Virus record (IMG/VR): IMGVR_UViG_2537561936_000014
Span: 1 to 44,077 of that record
DNA from: a virus
Taxonomy: Duplodnaviria > Heunggongvirae > Uroviricota > Caudoviricetes
Reading direction: 5' to 3' (one strand)
Length of the DNA stretch: 44,077 nt
This document shows positions 9,001 through 12,000 of the stretch, one piece after another. A program made the position numbers. Position 1 is the first letter of the stretch, and every line of letters begins with the position of its first letter.

Positions 9001-12000
9001 CATTCTGGGTAAAAAATATCATGAGTCCGTCAAAGCTTCGCGAAAAATGGGATGAACTGGTTATCCGCCTGGGGCGTTCGTCTGTACAGCGTTGTGTGAA
9101 TCATATTTCTGAGCCGGATACCGAAATTCCGCCGGGGTTCAGGGGGTAACGGGCCATGAAAAATATCGCGGCAGGTGGTGTTCTTGAGCGTATCCGTAAG
9201 CTGACCCCGCAGCATGTAATCGCGCCGTACCGGACAGTGGACGAGTGGCGCGAGTGGCAACTGGCAGAAGGGCGAAAACGTAGCGAGGAGATCAACCGCC
9301 AGAATCGCCAGTTGCGGGTGGAAAAAATCCTGAATCGTTCGGGCATCCAGCCTCTGCACAGCAAATGCTCGTTTGCGAATTATCAGGTGCAGAATGACGG
9401 GCAAAAACACGCGCTGAGCCAGGCAAAATCCATCGCTGACGAACTGATGACCGGGTGCACGAATTTTGTGTTCAGCGGTAAGCCGGGTACCGGAAAGAAC
9501 CACCTTGCAGCCGCCATTGGCAATCATCTTCTGGCGAAAGGTCGCAGCGTGATTGTGATAACGGTGGCTGATGTGATGCTGGCGTTACACAACAGCTACG
9601 ACAACAAAAACTCAGGCGAAAAATTTTTACAGGGGTTGTGTGATGTTGACCTGCTTGTCCTGGATGAAATCGGAATGCAGCGGGATACGCGCAACGAGCA
9701 GGTCACACTGAACCAGATAGTCGACCGCAGAACGGCTTCGATGCGTAGTGTCGGAATGCTGACGAATCTGAACCACGTAGCGATGAGTACGCTTCTTGGC
9801 GAGCGTGTAATGGACCGCATGGTCATGAACGGTGGTCGCTGGGTGAATTTTAACTGGGAGAGCTGGCGTTCGAATGTCAGACACCTGAGGGTTGTGAAGT
9901 AATTTCAGGAGGACTTGTGGCAAAAGTATATTCACCCGAACAGAGGGAGGAGCTGAAGGCTCGAATCATCGCTCTGGTGCGCAAAAATGAACGCATGACG
10001 ATGTCGCAGCTGGAGAGAGCGACTGGGGCAGGCTGGCATTCGGTCCGACGCTGCCTTGTGGATGTGCTGGCTTGTGGCGATTTATACATGTCCGGGGAAT
10101 ACGGTGTTTTTGCATCAGAGCAGGCGTATCGCGTATGGCGTAAGACACCGGAGAAAAGAACCGACCTGACACTGATTCGAAAGTTACCAGACGGAGAAAT
10201 ACGCCGCTACGACAGGAGCCAGAACATAATCTGTCGCGAGTGCCGGAAGAGTGAGGTTATGCAGCGAGTGCTGGCGTTTTATCAGGGTAATTTTCAGGAG
10301 GTGATGGCGTGAGGGTGAGAGTCTATATCGCCGGTCCAATGACCGGGTATAAAAATTTCAACCGTGAGGCGTTCCACAATGCGGAAGAGGAACTGAAACG
10401 GGAAGGGCATACCGTCTTAAACCCGGCAGTACTTCCGGACGGGCTGACACAGCCGCAGTACATGGATATCTGCATGGCAATGATACGTAGCGTGGATGCG
10501 ATTTATATGCTGAAAGACTGGCAACGGTCAGCTGGCGCTAAAGCGGAACTGGCTCTGGCGGAGAAACTGGGGCATGTGGTTATTTTTCAGAGGGGGGCGA
10601 TATGCCGATTCTCTGGTTTCAGGAGGTGTGGGAAAAAGAAATGTGGGAAGGTCTTGTGATTGTGGCCGAAACAGTTCTTTTATTATGGTCTGTGATTGCG
10701 TGTATTTTTATGATTTATTGTGAATGGTGTGAATCTCGCGGTGGCCACTGAATTGCAACCATTACCCCCTGTGATGTAACTGTGGGGTAATGGTTGCGCA
10801 GGCATAGCGATAGGACTGGATGAGAAAATATGACGAAATTTACCAGAGAGCAATTGATTGCTCATGCTAATGAAAGTGTGAAATCCATGGAATTTGCTGC
10901 GCGACAGGCCGCGTTTAAGACTTCAAGAGTTGCCATTGATATGGATCTTGAGCTTGCCCGTATTGCGCTTGCCTCACTTGAAGCAATGCCAGTTGCATGG
11001 TCCTGTGCCCACAATATGGTTTTGTTCAATGCTGAATCTGTTGCGGCATACGCAAAACACTCAGCCATTGCGCCAAAACCCCTGTACGCTGCGCAACCGG
11101 CATCACTTTCACATGAGGAAGAGTTGACAATGCTGGTTAAACAATTGGTAAGTCAGTTGAAAAAAGCGAAACCAGATTGCAAATTACCGGATATGGCGAT
11201 GGAGTATCTGGAGCGGAATGGGCTGATAAGCGCGGAGGATGTTTTACGATGACCTGGCCGGAGGCATTCACAACGACAGGAATTGCAATGGCGTCGGCAC
11301 TTGTTGTGTATTCGGTTTGCAGATGGGGATAAAAACGGTTTGCGGGGAAATCTTAGTTAAGTAGAATGACTGCGGGTGCTTGAGGCTATCTGTCTCAGGC
11401 ATGAACACCAAAGGCAGATAGAGAAAAGCCCCAGTTAACATTACGCGTCCTGCAAGACGCTTAACATTAATCTGAGGCCCAATCTATGTCTCACAAATGT
11501 AGGTTAGCCTCTTACGTGCCGAAAGGCAAGGAGAAGCAGGCTATGAAGCAGCAAAAGGCGATGTTAATCGCCCTTATCGTCATCTGTTTAACCGTCATAG
11601 TGACGGCACTGGTAACGAGGAAAGACCTCTGCGAGGTACGAATCCGAACCGGCCAGACGGAGGTCGCTGTCTTCACAGCTTACGAACCTGAGGAGTAAGA
11701 GACCAGGCGAGGGAGAAATCCCTCGCCACCTCTCATGTGTCAGGCATCCTCAACGCACCCGCACTAAACCCGCTTCGGCGGGTTTTTTGTTGTTTATTTT
11801 CAGTGAGCATGATGCATCTGGTTGTACTGATGTGGCTGGCTGATTCTGTTATTCAGGTGGCTTATTGCTGTTGATCGGTATGTCTTCACGGCTAGAATCG
11901 AGGCTCTTAAGTAGCGCGCAGGGAGAAGAGGGATGGACCCCGAAGGGGAAGAGCTATTTATCTGGAAGGATTCTGAAGATGAAAATCGAAGAATTGCGTG

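What the first reader, a model, noticed from the sequence alone, without database searches (positions are those of the whole stretch)
11486..11792. Complete hok/mok-type type I toxin locus; antisense partner not identified
The 51-aa Hok/Gef-like peptide is nested in frame within a 70-codon mok-like ORF and is followed by a terminator. Such loci need a short antisense Sok RNA encoded opposite the leader, which I cannot place by eye.
Basis: partly seen in the sequence, partly recalled or inferred. Interest (0 to 1): 0.5.

Follow-up and report, generated by a model that had tools for sequence, protein, structure and literature searches.

The report
Intact prophage hok/mok/sok toxin–antitoxin module
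This is an ordinary, complete copy of the well-known hok/sok RNA-controlled toxin–antitoxin module (hokD/hokW type) in a lambda-like prophage, and the missing antisense Sok RNA gene can be placed on the opposite strand at about 11494 to 11420.

Summary
A 51-aa Hok/Gef peptide (11543-11698, Pfam HOK_GEF E=1e-23, identical to E. coli K-12 HokD/RelF) lies in frame inside a 70-codon mok ORF (11486-11698) and is followed by an intrinsic terminator (11766-11791). The locus really starts upstream, at a hok promoter (11340-11367) and mRNA start (11374).

The missing antisense partner can be placed on the minus strand, 11494 to about 11424-11418. This comes from alignment with the annotated, experimentally studied sokW of phage 933W/Sp5, and agrees with K-12 sokC. 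Its promoter is TTGCCT-17-TAACCT (11529 to 11501). The RNA has a 14-nt single-stranded 5' tail covering the mok start, then a long terminator hairpin (z=-5.9). Across 40 loci the hairpin covaries and carries 148 G-U cells on the Sok strand against 4 on the sense strand.

All hok mRNA switch elements are present (tac, ucb, SD-mok, dcb, fbi). Predicted folds reproduce the published full-length/truncated switch.

Near-identical loci (96-97%) are annotated as hokD in thousands of E. coli genomes. Verdict: already known, low interest. Transcription and activity are inferred, not shown.

The parts
11340..11367 (+). hok promoter: -35 TTGCGG (11340-45), 16-nt spacer, -10 TAGAAT (11362-67), 6 nt before the mRNA start
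   Evidence: Read from the sequence. The -10 and -35 are conserved in 933W, E24377A and K-12 hokC. The generic scan missed it because the -35 matches only 3 of 6.
11374..11791 (+). full-length hok mRNA, about 417 nt, from the tac 5' end to the terminator T run
   Evidence: The Rfam hok-leader model starts exactly at 11374. MFE is -174.6 kcal/mol, z=-10.05. Collinear with the 933W and E24377A loci.
11374..11385 (+). tac (translational activator element) GGGTGCTTGAGG
   Evidence: Pairs with fbi in the full-length fold and with ucb in all truncated folds. The duplex with the 3' UTR is -21.1 kcal/mol, reached by 0 of 200 shuffles.
11386..11421 (+). 5' leader hairpin (CUAUCUGUCU...AGGCAGAUAG)
   Evidence: Present in every predicted fold and is the first helix of the Rfam model.
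11426..11432 (+). ucb / anti-SD (AAGCCCC)
   Evidence: Pairs with SD-mok 11474-78 in the full-length fold and with tac 11374-81 in the truncated folds.
11418..11494 (-). Sok antisense RNA gene. +1 is G at 11494; the 3' end lies in the U tract, at 11424 by 933W sokW or 11418 by K-12 sokC. 14-nt single-stranded 5' tail, 55-nt bulged hairpin, then UUUUCUCU.
   Evidence: Transferred from annotated sokW and sokC. Fold -30.7 kcal/mol, z=-5.93. Hairpin covariation: 88.6% of cells paired against 37-49% for slid controls, with 9 pairs changed on both sides. 148 G-U cells on this strand against 4 on the sense strand.
11501..11529 (-). Sok promoter: -35 TTGCCT (11529 to 11524), 17-nt spacer, -10 TAACCT (11506 to 11501), 6 nt before +1
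   Evidence: Identical to the 933W sokW promoter region, where mutating the -10 element abolished antitoxin activity (Takada 2021). The pattern TTGnnn-17/18-TAnnnT-5..8-G sits at this place in 48 of 57 non-redundant loci against 2.8% of shuffles.
11474..11477 (+). mok Shine-Dalgarno GAGG, 8 nt before the mok ATG
   Evidence: Invariant GAGGC in 39 loci. Covered by Sok.
11486..11698 (+). mok ORF, 70 codons, in frame with hok and sharing its stop
   Evidence: Same arrangement as mokW and mokC. In frame in 30 of 58 loci.
11481..11505 (+). Sok target stem-loop holding the mok AUG, with loop CUCACAA (11490-96) carrying a YUNR (CUCA) motif
   Evidence: Predicted in the full-length fold and in two of the four truncated folds, those ending at 11740 and 11745. 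Per-locus folds give an equivalent hairpin; 27 of 39 have a YUNR loop. The alignment-based test was inconclusive.
11507..11511 (+). dcb (GCCTC), pairs with SD-mok in the truncated mRNA and abuts the Sok -10
   Evidence: The helix is 97.4% paired in 39 loci but invariant, so there is no covariation signal.
11530..11533 (+). hok Shine-Dalgarno GGAG, 9 nt before the hok ATG
   Evidence: Sequence. CAAGGAGAAG is conserved in all aligned loci.
11543..11698 (+). hok toxin gene, 51 aa
   Evidence: Pfam PF01848 E=1.2e-23. 100% identical to K-12 HokD.
11706..11727 (+). G+C-rich 3' UTR hairpin, the likely protective 3' end of the processed (truncated) mRNA
   Evidence: Present in all folds. Its role is inferred from R1 (Le Rhun 2022).
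11748..11760 (+). fbi (fold-back inhibitory element) CCTCAACGCACCC
   Evidence: Pairs with tac. Lies 45-60 nt after the stop in nearly all lineages examined. tac U4 with fbi A covaries with tac C with fbi G in R1-type and Photorhabdus loci.
11766..11791 (+). rho-independent terminator of hok mRNA
   Evidence: 8-bp stem, 5 G-C pairs, TTCG loop, T run.

Best explanation
The region 11340-11791 is a complete hok/mok/sok type I toxin-antitoxin cassette of the hokD/hokW subtype. It is a self-contained module of about 470 bp with its own promoter and terminator. It sits in the nin region of a lambdoid prophage, between the replication genes and Q, and points the same way as the early rightward genes.

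Proposed mechanism (sequence features are shown; activity is inferred from R1 hok/sok and Sp5 hokW-sokW):
1. A weak promoter makes a stable mRNA of about 417 nt.
2. The mRNA 5' end (tac) pairs with fbi near the 3' end, and ucb pairs with the mok Shine-Dalgarno. The full-length mRNA is therefore neither translated nor bound by Sok.
3. Slow 3' trimming removes fbi. tac then pairs with ucb, and the mok SD pairs with dcb in the open form.
4. mok can now be translated and, by coupling, so can hok.
5. A constitutive minus-strand promoter inside mok (TTGCCT-17-TAACCT) makes an unstable Sok RNA of about 71-77 nt (11494 to about 11420).
6. The single-stranded 5' tail of Sok pairs with the mok AUG and the target loop. 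The resulting duplex blocks mok translation and is cut by RNase III.
7. When Sok synthesis stops, through loss of the element, transcription shut-off or prophage induction, the pool of processed hok mRNA is translated. Hok then depolarises the inner membrane.
For: - Hok peptide: Pfam E=1e-23, identical to K-12 HokD.
- Rfam hok-leader model: 117.7 bits.
- Collinear at 92% with 933W hokW/mokW/sokW, whose record annotates sokW, and at 96.6% with hokD loci of E. coli.
- Sok candidate folds as 5' tail plus terminator hairpin, z=-5.9.
- Hairpin covariation over 40 loci, with a G-U excess on the Sok strand of 148 against 4.
- Sok promoter is positionally conserved in 48 of 57 loci against 2.8% of shuffles, and is identical to the sokW promoter that was inactivated by mutation in Takada 2021.
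- tac-fbi duplex: -21.1 kcal/mol, 0 of 200 shuffles, with compensatory U-A to C-G change between subfamilies.
- MFE folds of full-length and 3'-truncated mRNA reproduce the published tac/fbi plus ucb/SD-mok to tac/ucb plus SD-mok/dcb switch (model described in Le Rhun 2022).
- Whole-mRNA z=-10.
- Lambdoid context: repressor, O-like, DnaC-like, Ren-like, DUF1367, Q, holin.
Against: - No expression data: the Sok 5' and 3' ends are transferred by homology and the 3' end is uncertain by about 6 nt.
- The Sok promoter matches the sigma-70 consensus only 7 of 12, and the generic scan did not flag it.
- The SD-mok/dcb and ucb helices are invariant, so they give no covariation evidence.
- The alignment-based test of the target hairpin was inconclusive.
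- Chromosomal hok loci tested earlier did not mediate post-segregational killing (cited in bioRxiv 10.1101/2025.08.07.668861), so the biological role in this prophage is open.
Confidence: 0.9

Rival explanations
1. The cassette is structurally intact but biologically silent. Like the chromosomal hokA, hokB and hokC loci tested earlier, it would never release Hok under natural conditions.
For: [quoted passage not shown] K-12 hokD itself has lost its leader and rides on the relBE transcript.
Against: Here no element is disrupted: there is no IS, no frameshift, and mok, SD, tac, fbi and the Sok promoter are all intact. The 92%-identical prophage locus hokW-sokW is active as a toxin-antitoxin pair and affects lysis and phage yield (Takada 2021). 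The covariation shows continuing selection on the RNA structures.
Confidence: 0.1
2. There is no Sok RNA. hok would be controlled only by mRNA folding and mok coupling, and the minus-strand hairpin would merely mirror a sense-strand structure.
For: The generic promoter and terminator scans found nothing on the minus strand. The hairpin can also form partly in the sense strand.
Against: The hairpin pairs better on the minus strand, 88.6% against 68.1% of cells, and 148 G-U cells would be A-C mismatches in the sense strand. A promoter-like element is positionally conserved in 48 of 57 loci. The +1 G is invariant in 40 loci. sokW and sokC are annotated at the homologous positions, and Takada 2021 detected sokW RNA by northern blot.
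Confidence: 0.03
3. The antitoxin is the 175-nt plus-strand RNA that Rfam labels 'sok' (11374-11548).
For: The Rfam RF01794 hit is on the + strand.
Against: The model starts at the hok mRNA 5' end and ends at the hok AUG. In K-12 and 933W it hits the hok strand, opposite to the annotated sokC and sokW. It therefore describes the hok leader in sense orientation, and Sok is the reverse complement of part of it.
Confidence: 0.01

Closest known systems
hokW-mokW-sokW of Stx2 phage 933W / Sakai prophage Sp5 (AF125520; Takada et al. 2021, PMC8621323)
   Same: - 92% nucleotide identity over promoter, leader, mok/hok and fbi.
- Same in-frame 70-codon mok.
- Identical Sok promoter and Sok hairpin, except for one loop base.
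- Prophage-borne.
   Different: - The Sok 5' tail and target loop differ at 6 of the first 16 nt (GUGAGACAUAGAUUGG against GUUCAGCAUGGAUUGA).
- The Hok C-terminus differs (TAYEPEE against VDYESEK).
- The 3' end beyond fbi differs: 933W lacks this terminator.
- The position differs: the nin region here, against the far end of the 933W genome.
hokD (relF) of E. coli K-12 Qin prophage
   Same: Identical 51-aa peptide. Same 3' UTR, fbi and terminator. Same downstream neighbour type, a Rem-like gene followed by Q.
   Different: K-12 hokD is homologous only from the hok SD onward. Its promoter, tac, ucb, mok start and Sok gene are replaced by relBE, and it is co-transcribed with relBE. The window carries the complete form, like the loci annotated hokD in E24377A and thousands of other E. 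coli genomes.
hokC (gef)-mokC-sokC of E. coli K-12
   Same: Same architecture. mok is in frame. The Sok +1 falls at mok position +9 in both. tac is identical. Hok identity is 82%.
   Different: About 75% nucleotide identity. The sokC hairpin lacks the 18-20-nt tip extension found in the hokD/W type. The -10 is CACTCT. K-12 hokC has IS186 downstream.
hok/sok (parB) of plasmid R1 / IncF plasmids
   Same: All regulatory elements are present in the same order: tac, ucb, SD-mok, target loop, dcb, Sok promoter, fbi. Rfam gives 88.9 bits. The mechanism is the model for the family (Le Rhun 2022).
   Different: - 41% peptide identity.
- mok is in the +1 frame.
- The 5' hairpin is longer and the Sok hairpin shorter.
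- tac/fbi use C-G where this locus has U-A.
- It is plasmid-borne with a proven post-segregational killing role.

Membership tests
[quoted passage not shown] | Hok/Gef peptide of about 50 aa (PF01848) with an N-terminal transmembrane helix and a conserved TRK-LCE motif | tested here: met
   Pfam E=1.2e-23, full-length match 1-42/42. Identical to K-12 HokD. 17 invariant residues shared with R1 Hok, HokC and HokW.
[quoted passage not shown] | Overlapping mok reading frame with its own SD, starting about 57 nt upstream of hok, through which hok translation is coupled | tested here: met
   GAGG, then 8 nt, then ATG at 11486. The 70-codon ORF ends at the hok stop. The same layout is found in 30 of 58 loci, and +1-frame mok in 20. 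Translational coupling itself was not tested.
[quoted passage not shown] | Cis-encoded antisense Sok RNA of about 60-75 nt: promoter inside the 5' part of mok, single-stranded 5' tail, and a stem-loop that also terminates transcription, complementary to the mok translation initiation region | tested here: met
   Sequence-level only. Positions come by homology to sokW and sokC. Fold z=-5.9. Covariation and strand asymmetry. Conserved promoter. Sok covers SD-mok 11474-77 and the mok AUG 11486-88.
[quoted passage not shown] | Sok is actually transcribed, is unstable, and neutralises hok | not testable with these tools
   Shown for the 92%-identical hokW-sokW locus (Takada 2021), not for this sequence.
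[quoted passage not shown] | Long-range tac (5' end) to fbi (3' UTR) pairing that closes the full-length mRNA | tested here: met
   12 of 12 tac bases pair with 11748-60, with one bulge, in the MFE and centroid folds. Duplex reached by 0 of 200 shuffles. Compensatory U-A to C-G change between subfamilies, with fbi at a constant distance of 45-60 nt after the stop in nearly all loci.
[quoted passage not shown] | Alternative pairings: ucb/SD-mok in the closed form, and tac/ucb plus SD-mok/dcb after 3' truncation | tested here: met
   tac/ucb forms in all four truncation end points tried. SD-mok pairs with dcb when the mRNA ends at 11740 or 11745; at 11728 and 11732 it pairs with 11488-93 instead. 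The SD-mok/dcb helix is 97% paired in 39 loci but invariant, so there is no covariation support. This is thermodynamic prediction only.
[quoted passage not shown] | Target stem-loop with the mok AUG in the stem and a U-turn (YUNR) loop recognised by the Sok 5' tail | tested here: inconclusive
   The window folds into a 9-bp hairpin with loop CUCACAA (CUCA = YUNR), z=-1.96. 27 of 39 loci have a YUNR loop. The column-wise alignment test gave only 47% pairing, probably from register shifts. The role of YUNR is recalled from the R1 literature, not tested.
[quoted passage not shown] | Slow 3' exonucleolytic processing to a translatable truncated mRNA | not testable with these tools
   A stable hairpin at 11706-27 upstream of fbi could stop trimming. 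There are no RNA data.
Rfam RF01794 (sok; in fact the hok mRNA leader) | Score above the curated gathering threshold over the full model | tested here: met
   117.7 bits against 59, model positions 1-157 of 157, + strand. Orientation was checked against annotated sokC and sokW.
K-12-type relBE-hokD (relF) operon | hokD directly downstream of relE, with no mok, no Sok gene and no leader of its own | tested here: not met
   The window has the full leader and no relBE. Homology to K-12 starts only at the hok SD. It is the intact hokD form, not the K-12 rearranged one.

The most novel reading that the evidence does not exclude
The only mildly novel reading left has two parts. First, the hypervariable Sok 5' tail and target loop (11481-11494) may define a distinct specificity class, letting this module coexist with other hok/sok copies without cross-talk. 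Second, because the cassette sits in the nin region and points the same way as the early rightward transcript, prophage induction could override Sok by read-through or transcriptional interference. Hok would then act as an induction-timed lysis helper, as reported for hokW in Sp5, rather than as an addiction module.
Probability: 0.15. Interest if true: 0.35.

Novelty: already known. Interest (0 to 1): 0.1.

Why it matters
It matters little beyond annotation.
- The window carries an intact hokD-type toxin-antitoxin cassette, and the coordinates given here cover the Sok gene and all mRNA switch elements. In the RefSeq record inspected (E24377A) only the hokD CDS is annotated at this locus.
- It illustrates that K-12 hokD is a truncated derivative of this complete form.
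- The Rfam 'sok' family reports the hok strand, which can mislead automated annotation.
- What hok/sok modules do in the nin region of lambdoid prophages is still open, but that question is not specific to this sequence.

Tried and rejected
- **Generic scans.** The promoter and terminator scan found neither the hok promoter, the Sok promoter nor the Sok terminator. The hexamers match only 3-4 of 6 and the Sok stem is bulged. Homology was needed to place them.
- **Rfam hit.** Taking the '+ strand sok' hit at face value was rejected after the orientation check.
- **Source genome.** No exact match turned up. The best were 96.6% in E. coli genomes, 97.0% in phages, in a record labelled Actinobacillus phage, and 97.4% in genome contigs, from E. 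coli and Shigella flexneri. A 15-kb query covered at most 63% of any complete E. coli genome at about 92%, so the prophage is a mosaic.
- **IncF locus L006.** It proved to be interrupted by IS150 in the leader and was not used. L008 lacks the leader.
- **Target hairpin covariation.** The alignment-based test was inconclusive and was replaced by per-locus folding.
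Full report
**1. Observation**

The ORF table lists an ATG ORF at 11486..11698 on the + strand (70 aa). 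An internal ATG at 11543 in the same frame gives MKQQKAMLIALIVICLTVIVTALVTRKDLCEVRIRTGQTEVAVFTAYEPEE (51 aa).
- Both versions match Pfam PF01848 (Hok/Gef) over the whole model: E=1.2e-23, 82.9 bits against a cut-off of 22.
- The 51-aa peptide is identical to K-12 HokD/RelF.
- A terminator-like hairpin at 11766-11785 followed by a T run is the only + strand terminator found in 11200-11950.

Its coordinates, however, miss the 5' leader (11374-11485) and the promoter.

**2. What the locus is**

Several independent results identify it.
- Rfam RF01794 matches 11374-11548 at 117.7 bits (gathering score 59, E=2.5e-26), covering model positions 1-157.
- Megablast finds the 471-bp block 11330-11800 in 4942 of 5426 complete E. 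coli genomes. The best match is 96.6% identical, and the annotation under it is 'type I toxin-antitoxin system toxin HokD'.
- In E24377A the block lies between replication genes and rem/rusA/Q of a lambdoid prophage.
- In the phage collection the block is 92-97% identical to 79 records. One is phage 933W, whose record annotates mokW, hokW and a sokW antisense RNA.
- Alignment A1 shows the window collinear with 933W, E24377A and a Rac-type phage from the promoter to fbi.
- K-12 hokD is homologous only from the hok Shine-Dalgarno onward. Upstream it has relE, and it is co-transcribed with relBE.

The window thus carries the complete form of the locus that is truncated in K-12.

**3. Context**

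PHROGs and Pfam scans give this gene order:
- repressor (6986-7438, minus strand)
- Cro/CII-like gene (7454-7756)
- O-like initiator (8202-9149)
- DnaC-like loader (9156-9902)
- Ren-like gene (9917-10312)
- DUF4406 (10309-10659)
- a gene of unknown function (10830-11252)
- the hok cassette
- a Rem-like ORF (11979-12152)
- DUF1367 (12200-12811)
- a DUF1364/HNH-like gene (12811-13101)
- Q antiterminator (about 13098-13640)
- two tRNAs (14011-14164)
- holin (14891-15316)

The cassette is a moron-like insert in the nin region of a lambdoid prophage. It points the same way as the early rightward genes. No complete E. coli genome holds this exact prophage; the best is 63% coverage at about 92%.

**4. 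Placing Sok**

The 933W record puts sokW at L002 1595-1665 on the strand opposite hokW. Through alignment A1 this maps to window 11494 down to 11424 on the minus strand. K-12 sokC starts at the base complementary to mok position +9, exactly as 11494 does. Its 3' end maps to about 11418.

The predicted RNA is GUGAGACAUAGAUU-GGGCCUCAGAUUAAUGUUAAGCGUCUUGCAGGACGCGUAAUGUUAACUGGGGCUU-UUCUCU. It has three parts:
- a 14-nt single-stranded tail complementary to 11481-11494, which covers the mok AUG and the first codons;
- a 55-nt bulged hairpin with a G+C-rich base;
- a U-rich tract.

The fold is -30.7 kcal/mol, z=-5.93, reached by 0 of 200 shuffles.

Upstream on the minus strand lie TTGCCT (11529 to 11524), a 17-nt spacer, TAACCT (11506 to 11501) and 6 nt before the +1 G. 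This stretch is identical in 933W. Takada et al. showed there that sokW expressed from its own promoter suppresses HokW toxicity, and that mutating the -10 element abolishes suppression (PMC8621323).

The generic scan missed this promoter because it matches only 7 of 12 consensus positions. The R1 sok promoter (TTGCGC-17-TATCCT, read from L007) is no better.

**5. Comparative tests**

I collected 80 hok loci from one-genome-per-species contigs, spanning Escherichia, Shigella, Kluyvera, Citrobacter, Photorhabdus, Pantoea, Erwinia, Sodalis, Buttiauxella, Leclercia and others.

(a) Sok hairpin. On a 40-sequence minus-strand alignment (A4), the window's hairpin gives these counts:

| Measure | Structure as given | Partners slid by 1-3 columns |
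|---|---|---|
| Cells forming a standard pair | 88.6% | 37-49% |
| Pairs with changes on both sides | 9 | 2-4 |
| Cells with changes on both sides | 56 | 15 or fewer |

No shuffle of 500 reached the observed pairing or covariation score.

The same pairs read on the sense strand are only 68.1% paired. There are 148 G-U cells on the Sok strand against 4 on the sense strand. This argues that the hairpin is selected in the minus-strand transcript.

(b) Sok promoter. The pattern TTGnnn-17/18-TAnnnT-5..8-G occurs at the homologous place in 48 of 57 non-redundant loci, against 2.8% of shuffled segments. The +1 G is invariant in A4.

(c) tac-fbi. The first 12 nt of the mRNA pair best with a site 45-60 nt after the hok stop in nearly all lineages. 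Loci with tac GGGUGC have fbi GCACCC. Loci with tac GG(G)CGC (R1-type, Photorhabdus, Pantoea) have fbi GCGCC(C). This is a compensatory U-A to C-G change. For the window the duplex is -21.1 kcal/mol, reached by 0 of 200 shuffles.

(d) mok frame. mok is in frame with hok in 30 of 58 non-redundant loci and in the +1 frame in 20, including R1.

**6. The mRNA switch**

In the MFE and centroid folds of the full-length mRNA (11374-11790, -174.6 kcal/mol, z=-10.05):
- tac 11374-85 pairs with fbi 11748-60;
- ucb 11428-32 pairs with the mok SD 11474-78.

In all four truncated mRNAs tried (ends 11728-11745), tac 11374-81 pairs instead with ucb 11426-32. With ends at 11740 or 11745, the mok SD pairs with GCCUC at 11507-11 (dcb), enclosing a 9-bp target hairpin (11481-11505). 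The loop of that hairpin, CUCACAA, holds a YUNR motif. With ends at 11728 or 11732, the mok SD pairs with 11488-93 instead and the target hairpin does not form.

This is the closed/open switch described for R1 hok mRNA (Le Rhun et al. 2022, PMC9841398). A stable hairpin at 11706-27 just upstream of fbi is a plausible stop for 3' trimming.

These are thermodynamic predictions. The SD-mok/dcb helix is conserved (97% paired) but invariant, so it gives no covariation evidence. The column-wise test of the target hairpin was inconclusive. Per-locus folding does recover an equivalent hairpin in most loci, with a YUNR loop in 27 of 39.

**7. Mechanism and status of each step**

Shown from sequence or comparison: all coding and RNA elements are present, intact and under structural selection.

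Inferred from R1 and Sp5 work:
- The weak hok promoter and the stronger Sok promoter run constitutively.
- Full-length mRNA is inert.
- 3' processing opens it.
- Sok binds the mok initiation region, blocks mok and thus hok translation, and triggers RNase III cleavage.
- When Sok is no longer made, Hok is produced and damages the inner membrane.

What the module does for this prophage is not known. Possibilities are addiction, exclusion of other phages, or help with lysis. In Sp5, the module speeds lysis and doubles phage yield after mitomycin C. Older work found chromosomal hok loci inactive in post-segregational killing.

**8. Comparison and novelty**

The locus passes every sequence-testable criterion of the hok/sok family. 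It is an allele of a locus annotated in thousands of genomes. [quoted passage not shown]

Differences from hokW are small:
- six changes in the Sok 5' tail and target loop;
- the Hok C-terminus;
- the terminator;
- the position in the phage genome.

Among 15 close relatives the tail region is a hypervariable patch (0.25, against 0.03-0.07 in the flanking elements). This fits the known lack of cross-talk between Sok RNAs.

Verdict: already known, low interest. The useful output is a complete coordinate map including the Sok gene.

**9. Caveat on Rfam**

RF01794, named 'sok', is modelled in hok-sense orientation. It hits the hokC strand in K-12 and the hokW strand in 933W, opposite to the annotated sokC and sokW. 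The + strand hit in the window therefore marks the hok leader, not the antitoxin.

Noticed in passing
window 11374-11548 (+); L004 602-754 (-); L002 1545-1719 (+): Rfam RF01794 'sok antitoxin' is built in the hok-mRNA sense orientation, from the tac 5' end to the hok AUG. Its hits fall on the strand opposite to the annotated sokC and sokW genes, so automated annotation from this family mislabels both strand and extent.
   Followed up: yes
window 11481-11494: The Sok 5' tail, target loop and first mok codons form a hypervariable patch among 15 close hokD/W-type loci (mean variability 0.25, against 0.03-0.07 in the Sok hairpin, the Sok promoter and the hok CDS). This may reflect diversification of antisense specificity.
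   Followed up: partly
window 11681-11684: The Tyr47 codon TAC is followed by G (TACG, within CUUACGAA). This is the motif at which TadA A-to-I editing is reported to recode Tyr to Cys in hokB, hokC, hokD and hokE mRNAs (bioRxiv 10.1101/2025.08.07.668861). Editing would create a second Cys to pair with Cys30.
   Followed up: no
window 11249-11332 (+): A 27-aa hydrophobic ORF (MTWPEAFTTTGIAMASALVVYSVCRWG) overlaps the stop of the upstream 140-aa ORF by ATGA. It ends 8 nt before the hok -35, at the left edge of the hok homology block. It may be a small membrane peptide gene.
   Followed up: no
window 11330-11800; L002 (933W): The hok cassette behaves as a discrete module of about 470 bp. Homology to E24377A spans 11330-11800. 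Homology to 933W and the Stx phages stops at about 11765, so those phages have a different 3' end without this terminator, and they carry the cassette at the far end of the genome rather than in the nin region.
   Followed up: partly
L012, L017, L037, L087: The K-12-type junction, in which relE-proximal sequence replaces the hok leader (…GACACTTCTGCTTTGCGTTGACAG…), also occurs in Shigella flexneri, a Kluyvera species and an Escherichia sp. The relBE-hokD rearrangement is therefore not confined to K-12.
   Followed up: no
L018, L028, L034, L070, L071, L072: hok loci identical or nearly identical to E. coli or IncF versions appear on short contigs of assemblies labelled Veillonella, Acinetobacter, Xanthomonas, Ferruginibacter, Streptomyces and Oscillibacter. 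This is most likely contamination. The best phage-collection hit for the window (97.0%) is likewise labelled an Actinobacillus phage.
   Followed up: no
L042 (701 and 1331), L054 (301 and 701), several Photorhabdus contigs: Photorhabdus genomes carry many hok copies, some in tandem about 400-630 bp apart and some visibly degraded, with internal deletions or missing leaders.
   Followed up: no
window 4986-5036 (-), 35136-35219 (-), 14011-14164 (+): Other RNA genes in the window: DicF (69.6 bits), an sRNA-Xcc1 family member (78 bits), and tRNA-Thr(TGT) plus tRNA-Gly(TCC) just downstream of the Q gene.
   Followed up: no
window 11871-11898 (+): The only consensus-grade sigma-70-like site in the region (TTGATC-16-TAGAAT) lies between the hok terminator and the Rem-like ORF (11979-12152, phrog_340). 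It may be a promoter for the downstream gene.
   Followed up: no
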